Positions 6,154 through 18,196 of a stretch of 64,000 bases of DNA are shown here, piece after piece (positions within the stretch are counted from its first letter, which is position 1; each line of letters starts with the position of its first letter). The stretch covers positions 7,634 to 71,633 of the forward strand of contig DYHY01000004.1 in NCBI GenBank assembly GCA_020723935.1. The letters are read 5' to 3'. The translations under genes and the position numbers were made by a program. The notes beneath the pieces are model-generated. The model made no database searches. It saw only the letters and a list, made by a program, of their open reading frames with translations, and was not told the DNA's origin. Source of the DNA: Candidatus Micrarchaeum sp. (lineage in GTDB: Archaea; SpSt-1190; DYHY01).

Positions 6154-7332
6154 TTAAGCCTTCTTCAGCGCGGCCCTCAAATCTTCAAGCAGGTCTTCCT
6201 TCGTCTCGATCCCGACGGAGAGCCTGACGAGGCCCGGCTCGACTGCTATCTGCGAGCCCGCGGTCGACGCGTGCGTCATCGCGAGCGGCACCTCGATTAG
6301 GGACTCCACTCCCCCAAGGGACTCTGCGAGCGGGAAGAGCCGTGTGCCCTCCGCGAGCCTCCTGGCGGCCCGTGCCCCGCCCTTCATCACGACGGAGACC
6401 ATCCCGCCGCCGTTCCTCATCTGCCGCTCCGCGAGGGAGTGCTGCGGATGGGACGGGAGCCCGGGGTAGAGGACGCGGGAGACCTTTGGATGGCCTTCGA
6501 GGAGCTCGGCGATTGCGAGCGCGTTCTCGGCATGCCGCTCCATCCTGACCGCGAGCGTCTTCGTCCCGCGCAGGATGAGGAAGCAGTCCATCGGGCCCGG
6601 GACCGCGCCGATGGCGTTCTGCAGGAACTTCAGGCGGGAATACATCTTCTCGTCGTTTAGGAGGAGCGCGCCCCCAACGACGTCCGAGTGGCCACCCAGG
6701 TATTTCGTCGTCGAATGGACGACGATGTCCGCCCCCAAGGAAAGGGGCCGCTGCAGGTAGGGCGTCGCGAAGGTGCTGTCGACTGCGACCTGCGGCCTCG
6801 CCCGGGACTTGCGGGCCAGATCCGATATCTCGCGTACGTCGCAGAGCGCCATGCGGGGGTTGGTCGGCGTCTCGAGCCAGACTAACTTCGTGTTCGGCAG
6901 GATGGCTTGCGCGACCGCTCCGGAATCCGATCCGTCGACATATGTGAAAGAGAGCCCGTACTGGCGCAGGACGCGCTCGAAGAGCCGGTAGGTGCCGCCG
7001 TAGACGTCGTTGCACGCGACCACGTGGCCTTCGGGTCCTACCGTGCGGAGGACCGTGTCTATCGCCGCCATCCCGGAGGAGAACGCGAGGCTGTGGCGCG
7101 CGCCCTCGAGCGCCGCGAGGTTCTTCTGAAGAGCCGTCCGCGTCGGGTTGTCCGTGCGCGAATAGTCGTATCCCTTGTGCTTCCCTATTCTTTCTTGGGC
7201 GTAGGTGGAAGTCAGGTAGACCGGCGTCATCACGGCGCCTGTCGACGGGTCGGGCGGCTGGCCCGCCCTGACTGCGAGAGTCTCGAATCCCTGTTCCTTC
7301 CCTTTCAGAATGCCCTTGTTCACGTAGGTCAT
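6154..7332 (-). CDS. cystathionine gamma-synthase/gamma-lyase family PLP-dependent enzyme
   Basis: 392 aa with the Cys/Met-metabolism PLP fold. PLP-lysine motif VHSTTKYLGGHSDVVGG. Confidence 0.85.
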   Translation of the reverse strand: MTYVNKGILKGKEQGFETLAVRAGQPPDPSTGAVMTPVYLTSTYAQERIGKHKGYDYSRTDNPTRTALQKNLAALEGARHSLAFSSGMAAIDTVLRTVGPEGHVVACNDVYGGTYRLFERVLRQYGLSFTYVDGSDSGAVAQAILPNTKLVWLETPTNPRMALCDVREISDLARKSRARPQVAVDSTFATPYLQRPLSLGADIVVHSTTKYLGGHSDVVGGALLLNDEKMYSRLKFLQNAIGAVPGPMDCFLILRGTKTLAVRMERHAENALAIAELLEGHPKVSRVLYPGLPSHPQHSLAERQMRNGGGMVSVVMKGGARAARRLAEGTRLFPLAESLGGVESLIEVPLAMTHASTAGSQIAVEPGLVRLSVGIETKEDLLEDLRAALKKA

Positions 7333-8402
7333 GTCGTTCCCCTTCCAAGCGTCTTGCTCTTTTTCTTCTTTTTCTTCTTCTTCTTCTTCTTCTCCCGCTC
7401 TTGCTCCGCGCCCCTGTTGCCGCGGAAACGCAGGACATGGGCCGCCAAAACTATCACGAGCAGGAGGAGGGCGCCCCCTAGCACCTTAGGATAGGGCCCG
7501 GAGGAAGAGGAGAGCGCCCTGCCCTGCACCGAATAGAAGTACTGCTTGAGGTGGAGGAAATCCCAGGTGTTGACGACGGAAGTCCCCCTGAATACGACAA
7601 ACGACAGGCCGATGAGCGCGAGGAACGCGCCCGACACCAGGTTCGTCGTGTGCAGCAGCAGGTCCTTCCCGAACAGGCGGACGCGCACCTCTTTTCCCCT
7701 GATAAGCGGGCTCTTCGCGAGGCCTGTGGAATCGTAGAAGACAGACAGGATGAAGAGCGGGGCGAAGATGCCCAGGGAATACGCGCCCATAAGGAGGCTA
7801 GCGTAGAGGACGTTCCCGAGGAGCGCCGCGACGGAGAGAATCCCGCTCAGTATCGGCCCGACGCAGGCGGTCCAGCCCAGGGCGAAAAGGGTGCCGGAGA
7901 CGAAGACCCCCGCGACGCCGTCGCCGCCGGGAGCCGGGGCGGTTCTCGGCCGGATGAAGGAGGAGAATCCCTTGCCGAGGGCGGTCATGATTCCCATCGC
8001 CATCAGGACGAGCCCCGCCACGAGGACGAGCTCCGGCCTCTGGAGCTTCAGGAGCGATTGCTCGCCGACGAATCCGGCGACCGCGCCGAACGCCATGAAA
8101 ACCACCGCGACCCCTAGCGAGAACGCGAGGGTCATCTTCGTCACTTCCGTTTTGCCTCCCGGCCGGAAGGTGTAAGAGAAGTACGCGGGAAGGAGCGGGA
8201 GGACGCAGGGAGAGAGGAGTGTGAGGGCGCCGGCAAAGAACGCGATGAGGAAGGAGATCTTCGCCTGGAAGTCCCTGGCATAGCCCTGGTTATAGTCCTT
8301 TATCTTCTGGAGGGCCGGCGGGAGAGCCGATGCGTCCGCCGCGAGGGCGGGCGCCAGGAGGACGAGCGCCAGCAGCGCCCGGCCCAGATCCATCCTATCC
8401 AT
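7329..8402 (-). CDS. ccdA: cytochrome c-type biogenesis protein CcdA (DsbD-family) with 100-aa C-terminal extension ending in poly-Lys
   Basis: LSPCVLPLLPAYF and a second conserved Cys in the TM core. Extra TM helices. EKKKKKKKKKKK tail encoded by a (TTC)n run. Confidence 0.75.
   Translation of the reverse strand: MDRMDLGRALLALVLLAPALAADASALPPALQKIKDYNQGYARDFQAKISFLIAFFAGALTLLSPCVLPLLPAYFSYTFRPGGKTEVTKMTLAFSLGVAVVFMAFGAVAGFVGEQSLLKLQRPELVLVAGLVLMAMGIMTALGKGFSSFIRPRTAPAPGGDGVAGVFVSGTLFALGWTACVGPILSGILSVAALLGNVLYASLLMGAYSLGIFAPLFILSVFYDSTGLAKSPLIRGKEVRVRLFGKDLLLHTTNLVSGAFLALIGLSFVVFRGTSVVNTWDFLHLKQYFYSVQGRALSSSSGPYPKVLGGALLLLVIVLAAHVLRFRGNRGAEQEREKKKKKKKKKKKSKTLGRGTT
7358..7393. repeat. (TTC)n microsatellite encoding the poly-Lys tail of CcdA
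   Basis: ctttttcttctttttcttcttcttcttcttcttc on the plus strand. Confidence 0.8.
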
Positions 8403-8406
8403 CCTA

Positions 8407-8991
8407 TCAGTTCACCGCCAAGGTTCCCCTCATCAAGCTGTGCCCGGAGCCGCAGGGGCGGTTGCAGAAGAATGCGAAACGCCCCTGCCTGTCCGCGGTG
8501 AACTCGACGACGACCGGCGCGTCCCCGGGGGAGAAGGACTGCGTCGCAACCCCATAGTCGGGAAGGGTGGGGCCGTGCGTCCCCGACGTGCTTGTTAGAA
8601 CGAGCCTAACGCGGTCTCCCTGGCTCACGGTTGTGGTCGACGAGTTCCAGCCGAAGGAGTATGCCTCGACCTTTATCTCCTTCATGGGCGCCTGGCCCGC
8701 CGTCGAGGAGGTGGGCGAGCTGGAGGATGAAGAGGAGGGGGATGAAGAGGAGAGGGATGAAGAGGAAGGGGATGAAGAGGAGGGGGATGAAGAGCCCTGC
8801 GAGCTTGATGTCGAACTGGATGGACTTCCTGAGCCAGCCGAAGGCATCCCCGCGTCCTGCGCTGGCCCCGTCACGCATCCCGCGACCAGGACCGCCGCCG
8901 CCAGCAGAACGGCCGCCACAACCGCAAAGGAGGCGGCCGTCTCGGGCATAGCCTTCCCGATGTTTCCCCTGAATCCCGATGCGTATCCCAT
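8407..8991 (-). CDS. cupredoxin-like (CuA-type Cys/His/Met motif) lipoprotein with Ser-rich linker
   Basis: Lipobox LVAGC after a hydrophobic signal. About 45 aa of SSSP-type linker. C-terminal FFCNRPCGSGHSLMRG resembles the CuA CxxxCGxxHxxM motif. Confidence 0.6.
   Translation of the reverse strand: MGYASGFRGNIGKAMPETAASFAVVAAVLLAAAVLVAGCVTGPAQDAGMPSAGSGSPSSSTSSSQGSSSPSSSSPSSSSLSSSSPSSSSSSSPTSSTAGQAPMKEIKVEAYSFGWNSSTTTVSQGDRVRLVLTSTSGTHGPTLPDYGVATQSFSPGDAPVVVEFTADRQGRFAFFCNRPCGSGHSLMRGTLAVN
8690..8810. repeat. 12-nt tandem coding repeats (ggatgaagagga-like) encoding the Ser-rich linker
   Basis: Five near-identical units. Antisense reading gives the EDEEEGDEEE artefact ORF 8567..9220. Confidence 0.7.
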
Positions 8992-9014: not shown

Positions 9015-10000
9015 CTTATCTCTTTCCCGCCGTCCCGTTCGGAACCACGACCGAGCCGTCGGACAGGTTCCTATACGGCAGGCTGAATATCTCGACCGTC
9101 TGGAAGACGTACGTCCCGTCCCGCTCGACCGTCCCAACGTACTTCCAAGAGCCGTTCAGCGCCGGATACGCATCCACGTCGCCGTTCAGGATCGCCGTAG
9201 GGACGAGGAGTATCCCGTAGCGCGAGAGAAGCTCCTTCCCCCTCAGCCGAGAATATGTCGACGGATTTCTCGGCTTGCACGGCCGCCCCGACCTTGGCCA
9301 AGACCTTCTTGTGTATGGGCCCGGGATCGTAGCAGGACGCGCACGAGGCGTCGCGGACTATCGTGAGGTTGACGTACCCGACGGCCCGCCCGAGGGAAGC
9401 GTCGTAGTAAGGCGGAAGGGGTTTCTCGGCCACGTAGGCGGAACCGTCGGCTGAGAGGGGGGCCGTGCTGAAGATTCCGGGAAGGATGCCCTCGTACGCC
9501 GAAAGCTCCCCTGAGAGGACGACAGCGGGGAATTTCGAGAGGGAATACTCGAGCGCGAGCGAGCGTCCTTTGGGGGAAGACAGGTTCACCTGGCTGATGC
9601 TTCCCAAGCCCACCCCAGCTAGGCGCAGCTGGCTTAGGAACGGAAGGGAGCCCGCGCAGGACAGGGCATAGATTACGGAAACGTTCACTATTCCTGCGAC
9701 CGACCCGCTAGAGACGTCGAAGTAGAAGGGGTCTGGAGAGGAAAACACGATTGCGTCGCCAGAAAGCCTTCCGCCGGGAACCGCTTGCAGGGATTTCGCC
9801 TTCCCTATCTCGCCCGTCACGATCACCGCCGGAAGACGCGTTATCCCGTACCTGGAGATTAGGGGAGCAACCAGGGAGGAGCCGAAATCCAGGTCGTCTT
9901 GCGATGCCACCCGCACTCCGGCGGACTTGCGTATGGAATCTGCCAGGGCCGCGGGCGATGAGCACCTGCCGCAGTCGGCCTTGACTACTATGGTAGTCAT
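9015..10000 (-). CDS. protein with three tandem thioredoxin/glutaredoxin-like repeats (CGRC, degenerate SCAGS, CASC); C-terminal repeat in shifted frame
   Basis: MTTIVVKADCGRC...RYGITRLPAVIVTGE; YSLSKFPAVVLSGE; then SRYGILLVPTAILNGD only after a shift at a GGGGG run near 9240. Track ORF 9071..10000 ends in Arg-rich junk. Confidence 0.5.
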
Positions 10001-10269
10001 GGAGACGTCCGCCGGGAGGGGCGCTCCTGCTCGGTTCGGACGGCCGAGCCCAGGATTCTGGAGAGCGAGGAGGACGAGAGGAGGTCAACGGACGCGAACA
10101 TGACGAGGGCCGCCGCGAGGGCGAGTACGAGGCCTTCCCTCCTAAAAACCCCGGGAGGCTCCGGCCCGCGCGATTCCGCTGCCTGCCTACTGCTCCGCCT
10201 CGTCTCCATCGCCATCTCGCAAGTATTGTGCCCCGGGGGGCGCGCTCTCTTGATTCCTGAATAGAACAA
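9997..10269 (-). CDS. small single-TM protein, translationally coupled to the thioredoxin-fold gene
   Basis: Its stop overlaps the downstream ATG (ATGA). One hydrophobic helix LVLALAAALVMFASV. Confidence 0.3.
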   Translation of the reverse strand: MFYSGIKRARPPGHNTCEMAMETRRSSRQAAESRGPEPPGVFRREGLVLALAAALVMFASVDLLSSSSLSRILGSAVRTEQERPSRRTSP

Positions 10270-10319: not shown

Positions 10320-10556
10320 CTAACAGCCACCCACCTGCTGGGGAAGACTCGCAAGGCTCTTGGGAACCGAGCCTCCCGACGCCGCGGCGATGCCTCCGCT
10401 GTTGCTGCCTGCGGCCTCGGACGCTGCGAAGAGCTCCCCGAGGGAAACCTTCCCGTCCGAGACCTTCGTCCTAAGCTCGTTCAGCTGGAACGTCTGCGCC
10501 GCGGAGACTACCACGAACACCGCGAGAATCGCCGCGAGTATCTTCGTCTGGTCCAT
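10320..10556 (-). CDS. small membrane-anchored protein ending in the SLPQQVGGC motif
   Basis: N-terminal TM ILAAILAVFVVVSAAQTF. C-terminus ...SLASLPQQVGGC followed by a stop. Confidence 0.45.
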   Translation of the reverse strand: MDQTKILAAILAVFVVVSAAQTFQLNELRTKVSDGKVSLGELFAASEAAGSNSGGIAAASGGSVPKSLASLPQQVGGC

Positions 10557-10603: not shown

Positions 10604-11416
10604 TTAACACCCGCCGACCTGGCTCGGGAGGCTCGCGGCGCCCGGCCCCGCGTCCCCGCCCGCCACATTGAGACCCAAGGTAACCATGTCCTTGGGGAAG
10701 AACAGGGTCTTCCACTTCATCGCCTCGTAGAGTATCTGCCCGTCGGAGTAGTTCGGCCTGTTCGCCGAGAGCCAGAGGGCCACGGAGAGCATCGCCGGGT
10801 TGTGCTGGCAGCCGCAGAGCGAGTTGCCGTTGGAGTCAGCTCCGGTCGGCCCTATCCCGCAACAGTACTCGCAGGAAATGCCGACCGGCTTGGTAGCGAA
10901 GCCTATGAACCTCTGGAACGCCTCAGGGTTGTTCTTCTTTACGTCGTCCTTGAGGCTCGGATAGGATTTCGCGAGGAGGTCGAGCGACTTTATCGGGTCG
11001 TCGAAGCTCACTCCCATCTCGGTGCCGTACTCGGGGGTGCCCGTCGGGAACATCGCCGCCATCGCCCCATCGGCCGTCTTCATCTTGTCGAGGGGGAAGA
11101 CCGCGGCGATCGTGTCGGCCGTGGATTTTATCTTCGAGACGTCAACCTTGGAGAGGTCAGCTCCGTCGGAGCTCCCGGCCTGGAGGACGCTCGAGAGAAA
11201 CCCTATCGAGGGCCCTTTGGCCCCGCCGCTGCCGTAGAGGGCGCCGGATATCGCGAATATCTGGGCCTGGTTGACTGCGAGGAGTATCGCCGCTATGACA
11301 ATGAGCGCTATCACCGGGGCGCCCAGCCTCATCGCGCCGGATTCCCTCTCTGCCGCCCCCTTCTCGGGAGCTGCCTTGGCCGCAGTAGCTTGCGTAGCAT
11401 GATGCCTTTCCGCCAT
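10604..11416 (-). CDS. membrane-anchored Cys-rich protein ending in SLPSQVGGC (paralog of 10320..10556)
   Basis: TM VIALIVIAAILLAVNQAQIF. Middle domain with CEYCCGIGPTG...CGCQHNP. C-terminus AASLPSQVGGC. Start possibly the internal Met at 11332. Confidence 0.5.
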   Translation of the reverse strand: MAERHHATQATAAKAAPEKGAAERESGAMRLGAPVIALIVIAAILLAVNQAQIFAISGALYGSGGAKGPSIGFLSSVLQAGSSDGADLSKVDVSKIKSTADTIAAVFPLDKMKTADGAMAAMFPTGTPEYGTEMGVSFDDPIKSLDLLAKSYPSLKDDVKKNNPEAFQRFIGFATKPVGISCEYCCGIGPTGADSNGNSLCGCQHNPAMLSVALWLSANRPNYSDGQILYEAMKWKTLFFPKDMVTLGLNVAGGDAGPGAASLPSQVGGC

Positions 11417-11466
11417 TTTCGGTCCGGTCGAGAACGCTGCCCCTATATTTAAAAGGGGGGAAATAA

Positions 11467-11486
11467 CCGTGAAAAAACAGTGAAAG
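11467..11486 (+). promoter_or_regulatory. 20-bp motif CCGTGAAAAAACAGTGAAAG (direct GTGAAA half-sites) overlapping the regulator start codon; TATATTTAAAA box upstream
   Basis: Reverse-complement copy at 13252..13272. AT-rich box at about 11441-11452 in a divergent intergenic region. Confidence 0.45.
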
Positions 11487-13228
11487 AAGGGGAAAACCAG
11501 CCTGCCGCGCAGCAGCGGGGCGTTTTCGCGAGCCAGAGGTCGGTCCTGGCGCTCTCCTTGGCGCTCCTCCTGATGGGCGCGGTGGTCCTGGTGAACTTCC
11601 TGTCCTTCTCCAAGGTCGGGGGGGTTATGGAAAGCCAGCTCCTGGACCGCCAGCAGATAGCGGCCGACTACGCGGCGTCAAGGATCGAGGAGCACATCCA
11701 TCAGGTCAGTATGGAGGTGACGACGCTTTCCAGCTTCCCCGCGCTGAAGAACCTCGACCTGAGCCAGTGCAGCGGGGACGTGAAAATAATACACCCCAGC
11801 CTCGAGGGCAAGACGAAGGTACTCCTGCGGGTTGACGCTCTCGGGAACATCGTGGAATGCTCGTCCCCGAATTACAAGGGATACGTTGGCTTGAACGTCA
11901 GGAACAAGGACTATTTCAAAGTCCCGGCCGAGACGGGGGCTTCCTATGTCTCGGGCCTCGCGAGGGACGGGAGCGACTACAATGTCTTCGTCTCCGCCCC
12001 CATCTTCGAGGGGGGGTCTGGAGGAACATACCCCAATAACGGCGAGTTCGGGGGAATACTCCTAAGCATCGTGGGCCTCCAGGACCTCTACGACCTCTAC
12101 ATACACCCAATAGGGCCGATGGGCAGGGACCTCTTCGTCCTCGCGAGCGTGGATGCGGGCGACACCGTGATGAAAAGCCAGGGCGCCCCTGACCTGGGCG
12201 GCCTCGGCAAGGTGCACGAGATAAGGGATTATGCCGGGACGGGCAGGACCATAGCCGTCTCCTCCGACCTCTCCCTCGGGAGCGAGAAGTTTCGCCTCTT
12301 CATCCTCACACCCCTCGCCAACGCAGACAAGGAGATACGGGACGTCAGAGCGGGCTACCTGTTCTCCCTGTTCTTGGCCGTTTCGGCCATCCTGGGCGCC
12401 CTCCTTCTCGCGGCTTCGGCGTACCTGTCGCGCGAGAGGATAAGGACGCAGCTCGCGCGGACCACAGAGACGCTCGAGAGCCTCGGGATCACGGTCGAGA
12501 CGGAACGGAGCGGATATTCTCCTACCGACATCGTCCTCGAGCCCCACAAGGTCTACCTCCTTAAGGAGGACGGGGAGACGAGCCCCCACGACCTCTTCAT
12601 TGGGATGCTCTCACATGGCTTCGCGGGCCTCGGCATAGTGAGGGACGACCCCAGGGAGCTGCGGAAGAAGTACAGCCTCAAGAAGACTTCGTTCATATGG
12701 CTCTCGGAGGCGGGCGGGGGCCGGGGCGTCCCGGCCGAGACCAAGATCGAGACGCTCCTCGGCCTCGCCAGGGAGTTTGTGGAGAGGAGCGAGAAGAGCG
12801 TCATATTGATAGACCGGCTCGACTACCTGATATTCGAGAACGGCTTCGAGCGGGTCCTCAAGGCGGTGTACGCCCTCCGCGACCTCGTCGCGAGGAGGAA
12901 GTGCGTCGTGATAATCTCGGCCAACCCCGCGGTCATACCCAAGGAGCAGATGGAGGCGTTCAGCGCGGAGACGATCGACCTCTTCGGCGGCAGGGCCGGG
13001 GCCGGCCTCTCCAAGGACGAGGCCGAGCTGCTCTCGTTCGTGAACGAGGGGAACGTCGCGAGCAGGCTCGTCTCCTACACGGACGTGACGGAGCAGCTTG
13101 GGATAACGAAGCCCACCGCCCGAGCCAAGATCCGGCGCCTGCAGGACGCGGGCTTCCTCTCCGTCGAGAAGGTCGGGCGGGTGAAGGCCGTGCGGATAAC
13201 GTCCCTGGGCAGGAAAATCATTTCCTGA
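11480..13228 (+). CDS. membrane-bound one-component regulator: N-terminal TM, extracytoplasmic sensor domain, second TM, DUF835-like (P-loop-less RecA/KaiC-like) domain, C-terminal winged HTH
   Basis: TM helices at about 22-42 and 295-318. Cytoplasmic part has IWLSE...VILIDRLDYLIFENGFE...CVVIISANPAVI. C-terminus ...QLGITKPTARAKIRRLQDAGFLSVEKVGR. GTG start. Confidence 0.65.
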   Translation: MKEGENQPAAQQRGVFASQRSVLALSLALLLMGAVVLVNFLSFSKVGGVMESQLLDRQQIAADYAASRIEEHIHQVSMEVTTLSSFPALKNLDLSQCSGDVKIIHPSLEGKTKVLLRVDALGNIVECSSPNYKGYVGLNVRNKDYFKVPAETGASYVSGLARDGSDYNVFVSAPIFEGGSGGTYPNNGEFGGILLSIVGLQDLYDLYIHPIGPMGRDLFVLASVDAGDTVMKSQGAPDLGGLGKVHEIRDYAGTGRTIAVSSDLSLGSEKFRLFILTPLANADKEIRDVRAGYLFSLFLAVSAILGALLLAASAYLSRERIRTQLARTTETLESLGITVETERSGYSPTDIVLEPHKVYLLKEDGETSPHDLFIGMLSHGFAGLGIVRDDPRELRKKYSLKKTSFIWLSEAGGGRGVPAETKIETLLGLAREFVERSEKSVILIDRLDYLIFENGFERVLKAVYALRDLVARRKCVVIISANPAVIPKEQMEAFSAETIDLFGGRAGAGLSKDEAELLSFVNEGNVASRLVSYTDVTEQLGITKPTARAKIRRLQDAGFLSVEKVGRVKAVRITSLGRKIIS

Positions 13229-13251
13229 CATTCTCGGCGGTTTGCCGGCGG

Positions 13252-13272
13252 CTTTTCACTGTTTTTTCACGG
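13252..13272 (-). promoter_or_regulatory. inverted copy of the 20-bp GTGAAA motif, 45 nt upstream of the 13316 operon
   Basis: cttttcactgttttttcacgg is the reverse complement of ccgtgaaaaaacagtgaaaag. TTTAATAT box follows at about 13296. Confidence 0.45.
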
Positions 13273-13315
13273 TTGTTTCGCCTTGCTTTAATATGGTGCT
13301 TTCTCCGTTCCCCGC

Positions 13316-13915
13316 ATGGAAAACGAAAGCAAGGCCGCAATCCCGGTGCTCGCCGTTGCCGCGCTCGCGGTATTATTGGCGCTCTTCGCGCTCCCCCTCG
13401 CGGGGGCGTATGCGTACGAGGGGAACTTCACCAAGGAGGCTCTCGCGATAATAGCGGCGAATGTGTCGTGCGGCTCGATAACCGAAGCACAGCTCGAGAC
13501 CCTGGGCGAATACTACAAGGAGCTCATGCATCCGGGCGCGGCCCACGAGGCTATGGACCAGATGATGGGTGGCGAGGGGTCTGAGTCCCTGCGGCAGGCG
13601 CACGTCGGAATGGGCCGGGCGTTCCACTGCGGCGCTTCGGGAAGCTTCAGGGGGATGATGGGCCTCGGCTACAGGATGGGCATGATGGGCGGTCCTTATT
13701 ACGGGGGATACACCGGCTACGGCGGGGGGATGATGGGCGCGTCCTATGCTACTCCTTGGTATCTGGTGCTCGTCAACGTCCTCTACTTGCTCCTCCTCCT
13801 GGGTGCGGTGATTTTGGTCTTCATCTGGGTCGTGCGGTCCTGGAGGGCGCTCAACAGCGGCGCCCGGCAGGAAGCCGGGAGCGGCCCGGTAAGGAAGCCT
13901 GCGAGGCGGAAATAA
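13316..13915 (+). CDS. secreted, C-terminally anchored Met/Gly-rich protein (Met-motif Cu-binding type)
   Basis: Signal peptide. MMGGEG, GMMGLGYRMGMMGGPYYGGYTGYGGGMMG. C-terminal TM helix. Confidence 0.5.
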   Translation: MENESKAAIPVLAVAALAVLLALFALPLAGAYAYEGNFTKEALAIIAANVSCGSITEAQLETLGEYYKELMHPGAAHEAMDQMMGGEGSESLRQAHVGMGRAFHCGASGSFRGMMGLGYRMGMMGGPYYGGYTGYGGGMMGASYATPWYLVLVNVLYLLLLLGAVILVFIWVVRSWRALNSGARQEAGSGPVRKPARRK

Positions 13916-13916
13916 G

Positions 13917-14582
13917 TTGGGCGGAACGGACGGAAAGGCGGCGGACGCCGTCTTCTACGCAATACTCATCGTTGCGGCTGCCGGGGCGACGGGAATAGCC
14001 ATCCTGTCGGCATTACAGCCTCCCTCCCCGGCAGCCCCAACTTCATTCGGCCCGCGCGCAACGAAGCTCACCTCATTCGACATATCGCTCGCGCAGGGGA
14101 TGATGGACAGAAACGGCGACGGGAAATGCGATTCCATGGGATCGTCGGTCGAGGGCGAGATCCTCGCGAACAGGCTCCAGTGCATGGGCGACCCCAACGC
14201 GACGATAGGGCAGCTCGGCTCCTCGCACCACCACGCGGACTTCAAGGTCTACGTAAACGGGCTGCCGACGGATTTCAACGACCCGAAATACTTCGTCAGG
14301 AGCTCGTTCGCCCATGTGGAGCCCGACGAGGTTTTGGGGGCGACCGGGACCGTCTTGCACCTCCACGCGACGGGAGTCCCGTTATGGGTCTTCTTTAAGA
14401 GTGTGGGGATGGACCTGGACGGGGCGAAGATCCTCGTGAACGGCGCGGAGAGTGGTCTGCTAGGGGACTATGCGCCGTCAAACGGCGACAGGATACTGGT
14501 GTCTTACGGAAACGCTACGCAAGGGGAACTGAAGAGAGAAATGGACAGCGTCACTGACTACGCGGCGATGGGGAGGGTCTGA
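13917..14582 (+). CDS. secreted protein with His motifs (SSHHHADFKVYVNG, HLHATG)
   Basis: N-terminal TM/signal. No recognisable family. Lies inside the copper gene set. Confidence 0.45.
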   Translation: MGGTDGKAADAVFYAILIVAAAGATGIAILSALQPPSPAAPTSFGPRATKLTSFDISLAQGMMDRNGDGKCDSMGSSVEGEILANRLQCMGDPNATIGQLGSSHHHADFKVYVNGLPTDFNDPKYFVRSSFAHVEPDEVLGATGTVLHLHATGVPLWVFFKSVGMDLDGAKILVNGAESGLLGDYAPSNGDRILVSYGNATQGELKREMDSVTDYAAMGRV

Positions 14583-14584
14583 AA

Positions 14585-15526
14585 ATGACTTCCACTGGCG
14601 CCTACATTTTCTCGTACCTGCTCTATATGGCGGTGCTCTCGGGCGCCGCCCTCTACGTCTGGAAGTACAGGAAGGGCCTCGACGAGATGTACGGCATGAT
14701 GATGGGAATGACGTTTGGCACGGTCGCAGGTCTTGCGACCGGCCTCTTCTACGCCCTCCCGAGCGGCGACTTTGTCGGCGGGGCGATTGTCGGGACCGTG
14801 GCCGGGCTCCTCTTCGGGATACTGCTAGGGGTGATCGGCGGGCCCCTCGGGATAATGGAGGGCGTTATGGGCGCCTTCATGGGGGGCTTCATGGGCTCGA
14901 TGACGGGGCAGATGGCGCGCCCGTTCCCGCTGGGCGCGTTCTCTCCGGTCTTCGCGGCGATATTCCTCGCGATGATGGCGGGGATCACCTATGCCGCGGA
15001 AACGGGCAAGACCTGCTGCGCTCCCGCGGGGGGTAAGCCGGAGGCGCCCGAGAGGCCGAAGCTGGTGAACCCGTCGGGCAAGTTCGTCGCCACGTGGACA
15101 GTCGTCGCCGCAATCCTCCTCTTCGCGAGCTTCGCGATAGACCTCTCGCCGTACTCCGCACAGGGCGCCCAGTCGACTGGCACGCAGAGCACGGCTCTTC
15201 CGGCGTCGCTTCGGGCGCTCACGGAGGAGCAGCAGACCCAGGCAGTCCAAAAGGACGGCTACCAGGAAGCGTCATTTAGGGTGACCGCGGGGAGGTACAC
15301 GCCTAACGTCATAGTCGTCAAGGCTGGGACGCCGCTTAGGCTGAACATCGCAGCAGACAGGAACGCCGGATGCGGGACTGACATCGTCTTCCCGGATCTC
15401 AGGGTGCGCTCGCTCATCCCCCCGGGGACGTCCAAGACGGTCGAGGTGGGGACCCCGTCCGCGGGGAACCATTCGTTCTCCTGCTCCATGGGCATGTTCC
15501 GCGGAAAAATCGTCGCGGTCGGTTAG
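14585..15526 (+). CDS. Met-rich polytopic membrane protein with C-terminal cupredoxin-like domain
   Basis: MMMGMTFG...GVMGAFMGGFMGSMTGQM TM region. C-terminal VKAGTPLRLNI...CGTDIVFPDL...HSFSCSMGMFRGKIVAV. Confidence 0.55.
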   Translation: MTSTGAYIFSYLLYMAVLSGAALYVWKYRKGLDEMYGMMMGMTFGTVAGLATGLFYALPSGDFVGGAIVGTVAGLLFGILLGVIGGPLGIMEGVMGAFMGGFMGSMTGQMARPFPLGAFSPVFAAIFLAMMAGITYAAETGKTCCAPAGGKPEAPERPKLVNPSGKFVATWTVVAAILLFASFAIDLSPYSAQGAQSTGTQSTALPASLRALTEEQQTQAVQKDGYQEASFRVTAGRYTPNVIVVKAGTPLRLNIAADRNAGCGTDIVFPDLRVRSLIPPGTSKTVEVGTPSAGNHSFSCSMGMFRGKIVAVG

Positions 15527-15556
15527 TCAGTTAAAAAGAGGTAAAGGGGGAGAAGA

Positions 15557-18196
15557 GTGAAAATGGCGATGGAAAAGGATCCTATATGCGGCATGAATGT
15601 CGACCCGCGGACCGCGAGGTTCAAGGGCGAGAAGAGTGGGAGGACATACTACTTCTGCAGCAAGTCCTGCATGGACGCTTTCCTGGGGGGCGGCGAGGAG
15701 GGCGTGGGGGAAGAGGGGCGCCATCGCGGCGACGGGGAACCGGAATCCGGGAAGGAAGAAGGACTCCCGCAAAAAGGCCCGCCGAAGAGGATGTTCAGGA
15801 TAAAGGGCATGCACTGCGCTAGCTGCGCGATAACGATAGAGAACAACCTCAAGAAGCTCCCAGACACCAGGGCGAGCGTCAACTACGCCTCCGAGAAGGC
15901 CTATGTCGAGGGGCCCGCGACCGACGCGCGGGTCATGGCGCGCGTGAAGGAGGCTGGCTACGAGGCGATCCCGGCTTCCGACAGGCCGGGGGAGATGGTC
16001 CTTGAGATATCCGGGATGGATTCCATGCACTGCGTCGGGATCGTCGAGAGCTCGCTCAAGCGCGTGCACGGGGTCTCCGAAGTCAAGGTCAACCTCGCCA
16101 CGGGCAAGGCGAGGGTCGCGTTCGACCCGGCAAGGGCCCATGCAAGCGACCTCGTCAAGGCTGTGAAAGCCGTCGGCTACGGCGCGATGGCGTCTAGCGA
16201 GAAGCGCGACGAGCACGCCGAGGAGCAGCGGGCGGAGATACGCTCCTACCTCTCCCGGATAGCGGTATCTTTCTTCTTCGCAATCCCTCTCCTCTACCTC
16301 TCGATGGGGATGCTCGTGGGCCTCCCGGTGCCGGAGTTCAAACCGTTCGAGCTGGGGCTCCTGGAGCTGGCGCTCGCTACGCCTGTGATAGTCGCGGGCC
16401 GGGGCTTCTACACGCGCGGCTTCAAGTCGCTCGCGAACCTCACGCCCAACATGGATTCTCTCGTCGCCATAGGGACGGGGGCTGCATACGTCTACAGCGT
16501 CTACGGCGTCGTCTCAGCGTACTACGGCGCGTCGCCGGAATACTATTTCGAGGTATCCGCGCTCCTGATAGCTTTCATACTCCTCGGGAAATACCTGGAA
16601 TCGGCCGCAAAGGGCAGGACGTCGGAAGCGATAAAGAAGCTAATCGGCCGGCAGGCCAAGACGGCGACCGTCGTCCATCACGGAGTCGAGACCGAGATCC
16701 CAATAGAGGAAGTGGCGATCGGCGACATCGTCATCGTCAAGCCCGGCCAGAAGATACCTGTGGACGGGACCGTCACCGAAGGGAGGTCCACCGTCGACGA
16801 GAGCATGATAACGGGCGAGAGCGTCCCCGTCGGGAAGGGCCCGGGGGACGCCGTGATAGGTGCGACGATGAATAAGACCGGCGCCTTCAGGTTCAAGGCA
16901 GAGAAGATAGGCGCCGACACGATGCTCGCGCAGATAGTGCGGATGGTTGAGGAGGCTCAGGGATCCAAGGCGCCGATACAGGCGCTCGCCGACAGGGTCT
17001 CGGCCTATTTCGTCCCGGCGGTCGTCGGAATCGCCCTCGTATCTTTCCTCGCGTGGCTCTTCCTCGCGGGCAAGCCGTTCCCGTTCGCCCTCACGATATT
17101 CATATCCGTCCTGATAATCGCCTGTCCCTGCGCCCTGGGCCTCGCGACGCCCACGGCCGTGATGATGGGGACGGAGAAGGGGGCCGAGAACGGGATACTC
17201 ATCAAGACGGCCGAGGCCCTGCAGATGGCCGGGAGCGTCGGAACGGTCGTCTTCGACAAGACCGGGACTCTCACAAAGGGCGAGCCTTCCGTGCCGGACG
17301 TCGCAACGGTCGCAGGCGGCGAGGAGAACGACGCCCTCGACTACGCGGCGGCCATAGAGAAGAACTCCGAGCATCCCCTGGGCGAAGCGATAGTGAGGTT
17401 CGCCGCCGAGAAGGGCATAAGGCCGGAGGCCGTGAACGAGTTCAGCTCGATCACGGGGAAGGGCATCAAGGCGTTCTACAGGAACAAGCTAGTGCACCTG
17501 GGCAACAGGGCGCTCATGGATTCGGAGGGGATCCCCTACCGCGCGTACGAGGACAAGACGTCCGGGCTCGAGGGCGAGGGGAAGACAGTCATGTTCCTCG
17601 CGGTCGACAGGAAGGTGATCTCGCTCATCGCGGTCGCGGACACCCTCAAGGAGCATTCGAAGGAGGCCGTCGCCGAGCTCGGGAGGCTCGGGATAGAGAC
17701 GGCCATGATAACGGGCGACAACGAGCGGACGGCCAAGGCGATAGCCTCGCAGGTCGGGATAAAGACCGTCCTCGCGCAGGTCCTTCCCGGCGAGAAGGCC
17801 GAGAAGGTGAAGAGCCTCCAGGAGGGGGGGAAGCGCAAGGTCGCGATGGTCGGGGACGGGATAAACGACGCGCCCGCGCTCACCCAGGCAGACGTGGGGA
17901 TAGCGATAGGCTCAGGGACCGACGTCGCGATCGAGTCAGGGGGGATAGTCCTCGTCAAGGACGACCTGCGCGACGTCGTGAAGGCGATACGCCTGAGCAA
18001 GTACACGATGGGGAAGATCAGGCAGAACCTCTTCTGGGCGTTCTTCTACAACCTGATCGGGATTCCGGTGGCCGCGGGCGCGCTCTTCCCGTTCACGGGC
18101 GGGCTGCTCAACCCCGTGGTAGCCGGCGCCGCCATGGCTTTCAGCAGCGTGAGCGTTGTCACGAACACGCTGACTATGAAGGGGTTCAAGTTGTAG
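15557..18196 (+). CDS. copA: copper-translocating P1B-type ATPase with N-terminal TRASH/YHS domain and two HMA domains
   Basis: DPICGMNV...[12 protein letters not shown]; two GMxCxxC HMA motifs; [10 protein letters not shown]; DKTGTLT; [10 protein letters not shown]. Confidence 0.9.

What the first reader, a model, noticed from the sequence alone, without database searches (positions are those of the whole stretch)
11480..18196. Copper island governed by a novel sensor-DUF835-wHTH one-component system
CopA (TRASH + 2 HMA) is preceded by three secreted or membrane proteins: Met/Gly-rich, His-motif, and Met-rich TM with a cupredoxin domain. Upstream is a 582-aa regulator with an extracytoplasmic domain between two TM helices, a P-loop-less RecA/KaiC-like (DUF835-type) cytoplasmic domain and a winged HTH. 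Archaeal copper regulation is known from cytoplasmic CopR/CopT-type factors. A membrane-embedded one-component regulator sensing periplasmic metal would be a different, undescribed control logic, consistent with the paired operator motifs.
Basis: partly seen in the sequence, partly recalled or inferred. Interest (0 to 1): 0.7.

Follow-up and report, generated by a model that had tools for sequence, protein, structure and literature searches.

The report
Membrane-anchored regulator of copper/thiol defence genes
An uncultured DPANN-like archaeon carries a membrane-anchored transcription factor, with a sensor outside the cell and a DNA-binding domain inside, flanked by two identical operator sites in front of a copper-export operon and a thiol-repair operon; the layout recurs in dozens of related archaea, giving this uncharacterised regulator class a first testable target set.

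Summary
ORF 11480-13228 encodes TM, double-Cache sensor, TM, a Walker-A-less KaiC-like DUF835 domain and a C-terminal winged helix. Downstream is a tight operon: Met/Gly-rich protein, His-motif protein, Met-rich TM-cupredoxin protein and CopA.

The "paired operator" is real. An identical 21-mer (AACCGTGAAAAAACAGTGAAA) occurs exactly twice in 64 kb, 9-12 nt upstream of the TATA-like box of each flanking operon.

The motif is tandem AGKGAAA half-sites 11 bp apart. It and its spacing to the TATA box are conserved in about 45 related loci (77 hits against 0.6 in shuffles). It is absent from two loci that keep the target operon but lack the regulator.

It is present in 35 of 35 loci. copA lies within 10 kb in about half.

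The DUF835-wHTH module is widespread behind other sensors and is catalogued but functionally unstudied. Metal sensing itself is not shown; a conserved extracellular Cys pair makes copper or thiol-redox sensing plausible.

Verdict: a new variant of membrane-bound one-component regulation, with a predicted operator and regulon.

The parts
7329..8402 (-). DsbD/CcdA-type membrane thiol-electron transporter (357 aa), distal gene of the divergent operon
   Evidence: Pfam DsbD_TM 64.9 bits against a cut-off of 27.1. Homologues (45-51% identity) occupy the same operon position in relatives.
8407..8991 (-). Cupredoxin/COX2-like protein (194 aa)
   Evidence: Weak Pfam hits to COX2 (E 6e-4) and Cupredoxin_1 (E 6e-3), both below cut-off. 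Homologues sit in the same operon in L009, L010 and L011. In L016 the domain is fused to the C-terminus of the Trx-like protein.
9025..10269 (-). Membrane-anchored protein with three tandem Trx-like CxxC domains, broken by frameshifts in this window
   Evidence: tblastn of intact relatives (370-414 aa) aligns in frame -1 at 10036-9236 and in frame -2 at 9294-9025. The N-terminal TM piece lies in a third ORF, 9997-10269. CGRC and CASC motifs can be read in ORF 9071-10000.
10320..10556 (-). Small membrane-anchored protein (78 aa) ending ...LPQQVGGC
   Evidence: It has an N-terminal TM helix, a Ser/Gly/Ala-rich linker and a C-terminal VGGC tail. Homologues with an invariant LPxMVGGC end occur in nearly all related loci.
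10604..11416 (-). First gene of the divergent operon: 270-aa membrane-anchored Cys-rich protein (CEYCC...CGCQHNP) ending ...LPSQVGGC
11444..11454 (.). Single AT-rich TATA-like box (TATATTTAAAA) shared by the two divergent genes
   Evidence: Read directly. It lies about 33 nt from the ATG of the 270-aa gene and about 30 nt from the regulator's GTG. It aligns with the TTTAAATA boxes of relatives. Function is inferred from standard archaeal promoter geometry.
11465..11496 (+). Operator O1: CGTGAAA / AGTGAAA / GGGGAAA half-sites spaced 10-11 bp apart. It overlaps the regulator's start codon and lies 9 nt upstream of the TATA box as seen from the divergent operon.
   Evidence: One of the two exact 21-mer copies in the window. 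It corresponds to the conserved AGKGAAAAAAYAGKGAAA site in relatives.
11480..13228 (+). Regulator (582 aa): TM1, dCache sensor with conserved C97/C127, TM2, long helix, DUF835 (Walker-A-less KaiC-like), wHTH
   Evidence: The segment ITKPTTR at the start of the predicted recognition helix is invariant or nearly so across the family.
13254..13274 (-). Operator O2: the same 21-mer in reverse orientation, 12 nt upstream of the TATA-like box of the cop operon
   Evidence: A site in the same orientation lies 5-63 nt after the regulator's stop codon in about 20 relatives.
13287..13294 (+). TATA-like box (TTTAATAT) of the cop operon, 29 nt before the ATG at 13316, implying a leaderless or near-leaderless transcript
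   Evidence: Read directly. Function is inferred.
13316..13915 (+). Met/Gly-rich membrane protein (199 aa)
   Evidence: Homologues (about 50% identity over the first roughly 95 residues) occur in operator-preceded operons of L009, L015, L023 and L024, and beside the regulator in L016, L017 and L035.
13917..14582 (+). His-motif protein (221 aa; SSHHHADF, HLHATG)
   Evidence: No Pfam or PDB relatives. A homologue of its C-terminal half lies inside the divergent operon of L001.
14585..15526 (+). Met-rich multi-TM protein with a C-terminal cupredoxin domain (313 aa)
   Evidence: Cupredoxin_1 E 1e-14. Homologues are directly preceded by the operator in L018 and L021, and one lies next to copA in L025.
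15557..18196 (+). CopA, a Cu(I)-exporting P1B-type ATPase with YHS/TRASH and two HMA domains
   Evidence: CPC and DKTGT were read directly. The gaps between the four operon genes are 1, 2 and 30 nt.

Best explanation
The 582-aa protein is a membrane-tethered one-component transcription factor.

Anatomy (shown): an extracytoplasmic double-Cache domain with an invariant or near-invariant Cys97/Cys127 pair, and conserved His72, Met101 (Val in this window) and His105. It is joined through TM2 and a long helix to a Walker-A-less KaiC-like DUF835 domain and a C-terminal winged helix.

DNA binding (inferred): the winged helices bind head-to-tail to tandem AGKGAAA half-sites spaced one helical turn (11 bp) apart.

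Operator positions (shown): one operator sits at a fixed distance immediately upstream of the BRE/TATA region of each target operon. An operator also covers the regulator's own promoter or start codon.

Regulon (inferred from the operators): the protein autoregulates and co-controls two operons.
1. An envelope thiol-reduction operon: CcmH-like Cys-rich protein, GGC-tailed small protein, triple-Trx protein, cupredoxin-like protein and the DsbD/CcdA electron importer.
2. A copper-handling and efflux operon: Met-rich protein, His-rich protein, cupredoxin protein and CopA.

Signal (inferred): most likely extracytoplasmic copper, or the thiol oxidation that copper causes, read by the Cys pair of the sensor. 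The output would be induction of copper export together with repair or protection of surface thiols, as in the bacterial Cus/Cop plus Scs responses.

Not determined: whether binding activates or represses the target operons. The pyrimidine-rich, poor BRE regions of the targets favour activation. The site over the regulator's own BRE and start codon favours autorepression.
For: Architecture.

Operators in the window: an identical 21-mer occurs twice and only twice, 9 and 12 nt from the two TATA-like boxes.

Conservation of the motif and its geometry:
- The 18-bp consensus is present (up to 1 mismatch) 77 times in 573 kb of 47 non-redundant related loci, against 0.63 in shuffles.
- Almost all of these hits lie at the regulator's 5' end, 5-63 nt after its stop codon, or in front of cop-type operons.
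- The operator-to-TATA spacing is rigid in about 40 promoters.
- The two sites around the regulator's own TATA box are 52 bp apart in 10 loci.
- The start of the predicted recognition helix (ITKPTTR) is as invariant as the DNA motif.

Negative control: two loci keep the Cys-rich operon but lack the regulator. Both also lack the motif at that promoter. One has a BlaI/CopY-type repressor with TACA-N5-TGTA dyads instead, and copA close by.

Copper link:
- copA lies within 10 kb in about 13 of 25 loci.
- Operator-preceded operons in relatives contain YHS proteins, DUF411/CopG, DUF302, Trx, cupredoxins and CopA.
- The divergent operon carries cupredoxin-like genes, and L016 has a Trx-cupredoxin fusion.

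Precedent: copper and envelope thiol repair are co-regulated in bacteria through the Scs system (PMC10907172).
Against: - No experiment exists, and binding of this protein to the motif is inferred from position and co-occurrence only.
- The ligand is unknown. dCache domains usually bind small organic molecules, and no canonical Cu site is evident. Met101 is Val in this window's protein.
- Half of the loci have no copA within 10 kb.
- Some operator-preceded operons contain SAM methyltransferases and an FCSD/SQR-like flavoprotein, so the stimulus may be broader, for example soft metals or sulfide/persulfide.
- The Trx-like gene of this window is frameshifted, so part of the system may be decayed or the assembly may be imperfect.
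- The negative control rests on two loci.
Confidence: 0.6

Rival explanations
1. The architecture and regulon are as above, but the sensor reads extracytoplasmic thiol-disulfide balance rather than copper. This could occur through oxidation or reduction of the Cys97-Cys127 pair, possibly relayed by the GGC-tailed proteins or the Trx/DsbD pathway. Cop genes would then be accessory regulon members recruited in some lineages.
For: - The thiol-oxidoreductase operon is the universal partner (35 of 35 loci), whereas copA is present in only about half.
- The Cys pair is the most conserved feature of the sensor.
- Neighbouring genes include DsbA, DsbB, AhpC/Redoxin, DsbD-DsbH fusions, glutaredoxin and thioredoxin reductase-like genes.
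- From my own knowledge: periplasmic Cys pairs act as sensors in the membrane-bound regulators ToxR and CadC.
Against: - Cupredoxin-like genes lie inside the invariant operon itself.
- Operators directly precede copA-containing operons in at least 7 lineages.
- The conserved Cys pair could simply be a structural disulfide.
Confidence: 0.25
2. The dCache domain senses an ordinary small organic ligand, such as an amino acid or carboxylate, or a host-derived cue. Copper and thiol genes are merely among its targets, so the system is not a metal or redox sensor at all.
For: The closest structural matches are amino-acid, carboxylate and pyruvate sensors: PctA-C, Mlp24/37, DctB and KinD.
Against: - The regulon content is coherent (copper efflux plus thiol repair) across about 45 loci.
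- The Cys, His and Met residues conserved in this sensor are not, to my knowledge, a feature of those ligand-binding dCache sensors.
- Sequence identity to them is only 11-17%.
Confidence: 0.1
3. The repeated motif is a promoter element or the site of a different DNA-binding protein, for example the DUF7343/MarR-like small proteins found next to the regulator in some loci. The DUF835 protein would then not be the factor that binds it.
For: - A small DUF7343 or MarR-like wHTH gene follows the regulator, or lies beside it, in L001, L067, L068 and L069.
- In relatives the second half-site abuts the regulator's own TATA box and looks BRE-like.
Against: - This window has no second wHTH gene in the cluster, yet it carries two perfect operators.
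- The motif is absent where the regulator is absent.
- It occurs only around the regulator and its neighbouring operons in 573 kb.
- At target promoters it lies 12-13 nt from the TATA box in reverse orientation, so it is not a BRE there.
Confidence: 0.05

Closest known systems
DUF835 (PF05763) / 'iKaiC' inactivated KaiC-like signalling domain of archaea (Makarova, Galperin & Koonin 2017, not readable here; listed in Galperin et al. 2018, PMC5847659)
   Same: - Clear Pfam membership.
- No Walker A motif.
- A KaiC/FlaH-like fold.
- Placement between a sensor and an output, as in the catalogued REC-(PAS)-DUF835 proteins.
   Different: - In the paper I could read, DUF835 is treated as an output domain of unknown function.
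- Here it is always followed by a wHTH.
- Here it comes with a predicted operator and regulon.
- In this subfamily it sits directly behind a transmembrane dCache sensor.
Membrane-bound one-component transcription regulators: bacterial ToxR/CadC/TcpP and archaeal ArnR/ArnR1 (PMC6396743)
   Same: - One polypeptide spans the membrane and joins an outside or membrane signal to a cytoplasmic DNA-binding domain.
- The DNA sites are direct repeats.
- From my own knowledge: Cys pairs in the periplasmic domains of ToxR and CadC have sensory roles.
   Different: - The topology is opposite: here the wHTH is at the C-terminus and there are two TM helices.
- The DNA-binding domain type differs (not OmpR-type; ArnR has an N-terminal HTH with C-terminal TM helices).
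- A dCache sensor and a KaiC-like transducer are present.
- There is no detectable sequence relationship.
Archaeal copper regulators CopR/CopT (TRASH-domain, Lrp-like HTH; e.g. Pyrococcus furiosus CopR, PMC7830388)
   Same: An archaeal transcription factor encoded next to copA, with its binding site in the copA-operon promoter region.
   Different: - CopR is soluble and senses cytoplasmic copper through a TRASH domain.
- The regulator here has no TRASH/YHS or HMA domain.
- It is membrane-embedded, and its sensor faces outward.
Bacterial periplasmic copper sensing by CusRS/CopRS, and the Cu-induced Scs thiol-oxidoreductase system (PMC10907172)
   Same: - The functional logic is shared: an extracytoplasmic signal induces copper export together with DsbD-like and Trx-like envelope thiol reductases.
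- Copper and redox homeostasis are linked.
   Different: - There is no histidine kinase or receiver domain; everything sits in one protein.
- The thiol operon contains protein families with no bacterial counterpart (the Cys-rich protein and the GGC-tailed small protein).
- The lineage is DPANN archaea.
CcmH (System I cytochrome c maturation thiol reductase), for the 270-aa Cys-rich protein
   Same: - A CxxC-type motif in a small helical domain.
- Genetic linkage to DsbD/CcdA and Trx-like proteins.
   Different: - No sequence-level match to the CcmH Pfam family.
- Extra invariant CGCQH motif.
- His-rich N-terminus.
- Invariant C-terminal LPGMVGGC tail.
- No cytochrome c maturation genes were seen nearby.

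Membership tests
DUF835 / iKaiC (PF05763) | Sequence match to the family model above the curated threshold | tested here: met
   90.4 bits against a cut-off of 33.1, E 1e-25, residues 371-494 covering profile positions 10-132 of 136.
DUF835 / iKaiC (PF05763) | RecA/KaiC-like fold lacking the Walker A P-loop | tested here: met
   Foldseek match to FlaH 4yds at E 1.7e-5. No [AG]x4GK[ST] motif in 40 of 40 family members. An acidic DRLDY (Walker-B-like) motif is retained.
dCache_1 extracytoplasmic sensor | Double PAS-like module with a long N-terminal helix, between two TM helices | tested here: met
   The window protein scores only 15.8 bits against a cut-off of 45 by sequence, but most homologues carry precomputed PF02743 hits. 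The model matches KinD, Mlp37, PctC and DctB at E 1e-8 to 1e-6 with TM-scores of 0.5-0.7 normalised to the target. TM segments are at 14-49 and 289-317.
dCache_1 extracytoplasmic sensor | Known ligand-binding signature, such as the amino-acid motif | not tested
   No coordinates were available to inspect the pocket. Only conservation of C97, C127, H72, M101 and H105 was noted.
Winged-helix DNA-binding domain | Three helices plus a beta-hairpin wing at the C-terminus, with sequence similarity to wHTH families | tested here: met
   Predicted elements are H512-526, H533-540, H544-556, E560-565 and E568-573. Several Pfam wHTH hits fall below cut-off: DUF6293_C E 3.6e-4, Fe_dep_repress, HTH_20, MarR_2. 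The family profile hits PDB HTH regulators at E 0.01. DNA binding itself was not tested.
ToxR/CadC-type membrane-bound regulators | N-terminal OmpR-type wHTH, single TM helix, C-terminal periplasmic sensor | tested here: not met
   The domain order is reversed, there are two TM helices, and no OmpR-type (Trans_reg_C) hit was found. It works like these regulators but is not a member.
CopR/CopT TRASH-type archaeal copper regulators | Lrp-like HTH fused to a TRASH/YHS metal-binding domain; soluble | tested here: not met
   No YHS/TRASH or HMA hit in the regulator, and the protein is membrane-embedded.
Two-component copper sensors (CusS/CopS with CusR/CopR) | HisKA and HATPase_c kinase core, with a REC-domain partner | tested here: not met
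   No HisKA, HATPase or REC hits in the regulator or its window neighbours.
P1B-1 Cu(I)-ATPase CopA | P-type core with a CPC transmembrane motif, DKTGT phosphorylation site and N-terminal metal-binding domains | tested here: met
   TIGR01511 scores 643 bits against a cut-off of 397. E1-E2_ATPase, Hydrolase, two HMA stretches and YHS are all hit. CPC and DKTGT were read in the translation. Transport specificity was not tested.
DsbD/CcdA thiol-electron transporter | DsbD_TM membrane domain | tested here: met
   64.9 bits against a cut-off of 27.1 for ORF 7329-8402.
CcmH/NrfF family (for the 270-aa protein) | Sequence membership in the family; three-helix domain with an LRCxxC motif; role in cytochrome c maturation | tested here: inconclusive
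   [not shown]

The most novel reading that the evidence does not exclude
This is the first definable regulon and operator for the DUF835(iKaiC)-wHTH class, which is widespread in archaea. In this reading a membrane-tethered transcription factor of DPANN archaea reads copper or thiol stress outside the cell through a Cys-bearing dCache domain. It passes the signal through an ATPase-dead KaiC-like oligomerisation module to winged helices that bind tandem repeats. It thereby switches on both CopA-based efflux and a previously unrecognised extracytoplasmic thiol system. That system is built around two protein families ending in an invariant LPxMVGGC-COOH tail, possibly a Cu(I)- or electron-carrying swinging arm serviced by Trx/DsbD.
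Probability: 0.4. Interest if true: 0.75.

Novelty: new variant of a known kind. Interest (0 to 1): 0.62.

Why it matters
- **A testable target set for an unstudied class.** DUF835/iKaiC domains are proposed hubs of archaeal signalling. In the paper library I searched, only one paper mentions DUF835, and it does not assign a function, a DNA site or a target gene. This locus and about 45 relatives give a concrete hypothesis: a 21-bp operator, a soluble cytoplasmic fragment to test it with, and a coherent regulon.
- **Outward-facing sensing in a reduced archaeon.** It would also show that DPANN archaea, whose lifestyle depends on their cell surface, keep a dedicated outward-facing stress sensor. 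That sensor would couple copper export to surface-thiol maintenance, a parallel to the bacterial Cus/Scs logic built from unrelated parts.
- **A side product.** The work points to a large uncharacterised family (more than 659 members) of Cys-rich surface proteins with an invariant C-terminal ...MVGGC tail.

Tried and rejected
- **First genome scan.** Searching genome contigs with the single protein found nothing. The family alignment was needed.
- **Source record.** The exact-sequence look-up of the window's own regulator returned no contig. The closest named SecY relatives are Altiarchaeota (52%) and Woesearchaeota (about 50%). Rfam and tRNA scans gave only two tRNAs.
- **Key paper.** The KaiC-hub paper (Makarova 2017) is not in the library. 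I could not check whether the exact Cache-DUF835-wHTH architecture was drawn there.
- **Literature.** Searches for DUF835 function, DPANN or Woesearchaeota copper regulation, and Cache/KaiC/HTH one-component systems found nothing specific.
- **Promoter scan.** The sigma-70 and terminator scan is uninformative for an archaeon.
- **Unmatched proteins.** The Met/Gly-rich and His-motif proteins have no Pfam, NCBIfam or PDB sequence relatives.
- **Alternative start codon.** I considered and rejected a downstream start for the regulator. There is no in-frame ATG, GTG or TTG before the TM helix except GTG 11480.
- **Motif as a BRE.** I considered that the motif is merely a BRE. This is rejected for target promoters because of its reverse orientation and its 12-13 nt distance from the TATA box.
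- **Sensor Cys pair.** I could not test whether C97 and C127 are close in the model, because coordinates are not returned.

Full report
**1. What is in the window**

The plus strand from 11480 to 18196 holds five tightly packed ORFs.

The first ORF (582 aa) matches DUF835 well above threshold: 90.4 bits against 33.1, residues 371-494. Residues 514-581 give a series of sub-threshold winged-helix hits, and residues 50-205 a weak dCache_1 hit. Hydrophobic segments lie at 14-49 and 289-317. None of 40 family members has a Walker A motif.

An AlphaFold2 model built on 40 homologues (pLDDT 78.9) shows, in order:
- a long helix;
- two PAS-like alpha/beta modules;
- a roughly 50-residue helix running through TM2;
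- a Rossmann-like domain;
- a three-helix plus hairpin winged helix.

Foldseek against the PDB matches the outside part to solved dCache sensors (KinD, Mlp24/37, PctA-C, DctB; E 1e-8 to 1e-6). It matches the inside part to the KaiC-like FlaH (E 1.7e-5).

The last ORF is a canonical Cu-type P1B ATPase. TIGR01511 scores 643 bits against a cut-off of 397, and it has YHS/TRASH plus two HMA stretches. CPC and DKTGT can be read in the sequence. The second HMA has lost its second Cys.

Between the regulator and CopA lie three proteins:
- a Met/Gly-rich membrane protein;
- a protein with His motifs;
- a Met-rich multi-TM protein ending in a Cupredoxin_1 domain (E 1e-14).

**2. The operators**

The 63-bp gap upstream of the regulator and the 87-bp gap downstream each contain the same 21-mer, AACCGTGAAAAAACAGTGAAA. 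It lies at 11465-11485 on the plus strand and at 13254-13274 on the minus strand. These are the only two matches in 64 kb even with three mismatches allowed, and none occurred in 100 shuffles.

Read in the sense of the gene it precedes, each copy lies 9-12 nt upstream of the only AT-rich, TATA-like box in its intergenic region. These boxes are TATATTTAAAA at 11444-11454 and TTTAATAT at 13287-13294. They sit about 30 nt before the start codons, which by standard archaeal promoter geometry (my own knowledge) implies leaderless or near-leaderless transcripts.

The upstream copy serves the divergent minus-strand gene (ATG at 11416). It also overlaps the regulator's own GTG at 11480. A third, weaker half-site follows it, GGGGAAA at about 11489. 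The motif is therefore a tandem direct repeat of AGKGAAA with a period of one helical turn.

**3. The same layout elsewhere**

A protein search found 42 full-length relatives at 37-48% identity. Two scans returned 22 genome loci and 38 metagenome loci, mostly Woesearchaeota or other DPANN MAGs. In these loci:

- *The motif is conserved.* The 18-bp consensus AGKGAAAAAAYAGKGAAA occurs 77 times (up to 1 mismatch) in 573 kb of 47 non-redundant loci, against 0.63 in local shuffles.
- *Its positions are stereotyped*. One site lies between the TATA box of the divergent operon and the TATA box of the regulator. A second lies 52 bp downstream, over the regulator's start codon, in 10 loci. A third lies in reverse orientation 5-63 nt after the regulator's stop codon, in about 20 loci. 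Further copies lie directly in front of cupredoxin- or copA-containing operons (L012, L018, L021).
- *Target promoters are nearly superimposable.* The pattern is TTTC(C/A)CTA TTTTTTC(A/C)CTA, then 12-13 nt, then TTTAAATA or TTTATATA.
- *The protein side is equally conserved.* The start of the predicted recognition helix, ITKPTTR, is invariant or nearly so across the family, matching the invariance of the DNA motif.

Five have the regulator next door. In the two of these that I scanned, L067 and L068, the motif sits at that promoter.

Two have no regulator (L065, L066), and both lack the motif at that promoter. L066 instead has a BlaI/CopY-family repressor plus an M48 peptidase, TACA-N5-TGTA dyads, and a copA/HMA/cupredoxin cluster 4-8 kb away.

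This is the best available evidence that the motif belongs to the DUF835-wHTH protein. It rests on only two negative loci.

**4. What the regulator is tied to**

copA lies within 10 kb in about 13 of 25 non-redundant loci with at least 8 kb of flank. In the window and in L005, L010, L012, L018, L024 and L025 it belongs to an operon headed by the operator.

Its first gene, the 270-aa protein at 10604-11416, is present in 35 of 35 loci with enough sequence. At 50-55% identity it is better conserved than the regulator.

In the window this operon runs as follows:
- the 270-aa protein;
- a 78-aa protein (10320-10556);
- a Trx-like gene (about 9025-10269);
- a cupredoxin/COX2-like protein (8407-8991);
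- DsbD/CcdA (7329-8402).

The 270-aa family has more than 659 members, all unannotated, from DPANN archaea, with no Pfam hit. It has the following features:
- a His-rich N-terminus in many members, and one TM helix;
- invariant residues C182, C185, C186 (CEYCC), C201, C203 and H205 (CGCQH);
- an invariant C-terminal LPGMVGGC.

The 78-aa protein is a TM anchor and a flexible linker ending in the same tail. Of the 49 ORFs in the first 26 related loci that end in Cys, 39 end in GGC, nearly all of them in this operon.

Intact relatives of the Trx-like gene encode three tandem CxxC Trx-like domains. In L016 this protein is fused to the cupredoxin domain.

Operator-preceded operons in relatives add the following:
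- YHS mini-proteins, DUF411/CopG and DUF302;
- Trx, DsbA and DsbB;
- AhpC/Redoxin;
- SAM methyltransferases;
- an FCSD/SQR-like flavoprotein.

The regulon is thus an envelope "soft-metal and thiol" defence set. Copper export is a frequent member but not an obligatory one.

**5. How it most likely works**

*Shown:*
- the membrane topology and domain order;
- the lack of a P-loop;
- the two identical operators and their conserved geometry;
- the gene content of the flanking operons;
- the co-occurrence statistics.

*Inferred:*
- The wHTH binds the AGKGAAA repeats head-to-tail, since direct repeats 11 bp apart lie on one face of the DNA.
- The DUF835 domain, like other RecA/KaiC folds, supplies signal-dependent oligomerisation rather than ATP hydrolysis.
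- The sites over the regulator's own BRE, TATA box and start codon give autorepression.
- The sites just upstream of the pyrimidine-rich, poor BRE regions of the target operons act positively. The opposite sign cannot be excluded.

*The stimulus is the least secure step.* The sensor carries an invariant Cys97 in a C-x3-M-x3-H loop (Met is Val in this window), a near-invariant Cys127 (ECSSP) and His72. Given the regulon, I favour copper, or copper-driven thiol oxidation, at the cell surface.

*Rivals:*
- a pure thiol-disulfide sensor, which I rate at 0.25;
- an ordinary organic dCache ligand (0.10);
- binding of the motif by another factor (0.05).

**6. Comparison with what is known**

The protein is a bona fide DUF835 member. 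Galperin et al. (PMC5847659) list this domain as an inactivated-KaiC output domain of archaeal response regulators, citing Makarova et al. 2017, which I could not read.

A profile search of 1.84 billion representatives shows that only about 20 clusters share the full dCache architecture. More than 130 further clusters match just the DUF835-wHTH half at E up to 1e-30, and 2,177 proteins match some part of the profile at E up to 1e-10. Ten of these partial matches were scanned. They carry the module alone or behind 4HB-HAMP, dCache-PAS, multi-PAS or REC-PAS sensors.

The module is therefore a general archaeal output device, and this is one sensor variant of it.

In function the protein resembles three known systems:
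- membrane-bound one-component regulators (ToxR/CadC; archaeal ArnR/ArnR1, PMC6396743);
- the bacterial pairing of periplasmic copper sensing with Scs-type thiol repair (PMC10907172);
- CopR, in being a transcription factor encoded beside copA (PMC7830388).

It fails the defining features of all three: domain type and order, kinase/receiver domains, and the TRASH domain. I found no paper assigning a function, DNA site or regulon to DUF835 proteins.

**7. Caveats**

- Everything is computational.
It has 63% GC, and the closest named SecY relatives are Altiarchaeota and Woesearchaeota at about 50% identity.
- The Trx-like gene in this window is split across three frames, which means either decay or assembly indels.
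- Half the relatives lack a nearby copA.
- The CcmH similarity is weak.

**8. Verdict**

This is a new variant of membrane-bound one-component regulation, with an unusually well-defined predicted operator and regulon. Interest is moderate to high for archaeal signalling and DPANN biology.

Noticed in passing
window 10604-11416 (-) and 10320-10556 (-); L001-L026: Two unrelated-looking protein families in the same operon end in an invariant ...(D/N)LPxMVGGC-COOH tail (LPSQVGGC and LPQQVGGC in the window). Tiny 50-54-aa ORFs ending GP(I/V)GGGC occur in L001 5757-5921 and L024 5151-5303. I know of no described C-terminal motif of this kind. It could be a sorting signal or a Cu/thiol swinging arm.
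   Followed up: partly
window 9025-10269 (-): The triple-Trx-like gene is broken. Homology runs in frame -1 at 10036-9236 and in frame -2 at 9294-9025, and the N-terminal TM segment lies in a third ORF (9997-10269). It is either a pseudogene or the result of indel errors in the assembly.
   Followed up: partly
L016 13193-14662 (+): The Trx-like protein is fused to a C-terminal cupredoxin domain. That domain is homologous to window ORF 8407-8991 and to the cupredoxin end of window ORF 14585-15526. This Rosetta-stone fusion links the thiol and copper parts of the regulon.
   Followed up: partly
L066 7383-7757 (-), 6580-7359 (-), intergenic 7780-8000: One genome lacks the DUF835 regulator. There the Cys-rich operon is divergent from a Penicillinase_R (BlaI/CopY-family) repressor and an M48 peptidase, with two TACA-N5-TGTA dyads in the promoter region and a copA/HMA/cupredoxin cluster 4-8 kb away. 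This looks like non-orthologous replacement of the regulator.
   Followed up: partly
L001, L007, L009, L010, L011, L012, L013, L015, L017, L024 (5' end of the regulator gene): In relatives two operator copies sit 52 bp apart (53 bp in L012) around the regulator's own TATA box. The second copy overlaps the first codons, so the conserved N-terminal '(G)VKxVK' residues may be dictated by the DNA site. In the GC-rich window this 52-bp unit is collapsed to one site and one shared TATA box.
   Followed up: partly
proteins P0314-P0436: The DUF835-wHTH half of the regulator occurs alone or behind 4HB_MCP-HAMP, dCache-PAS, multi-PAS and REC-PAS sensors in proteins of 230-1266 aa. Many proteins catalogued as having a 'DUF835 output domain' are therefore probably DNA-binding one-component regulators or response regulators.
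   Followed up: partly
window 15557-18196, CopA residues about 148-210: The second HMA domain has [10 protein letters not shown] instead of GMxCxxC. It has lost the second metal-binding Cys and may be regulatory or degenerate.
   Followed up: no
L023 2000-2614 and 5888-7036; L009 12892-13512; L067 1-4849: Operator-preceded operons in some relatives contain a UbiE/TehB-like SAM methyltransferase, a PEMT-like protein and an FCSD/SQR-like flavoprotein alongside DUF411/CopG. This hints that the regulon also deals with sulfide, persulfide or metalloids.
   Followed up: no
window 6154-7332 (-): A Cys/Met-metabolism PLP enzyme (E 1e-141) overlaps the end of the DsbD gene by 4 nt, so it may be co-transcribed with the thiol operon.
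   Followed up: no
window 26295-28922 (-): The window holds a second P-type ATPase of the type II kind (Cation_ATPase_N and Cation_ATPase_C domains), unrelated to the cop cluster.
   Followed up: no
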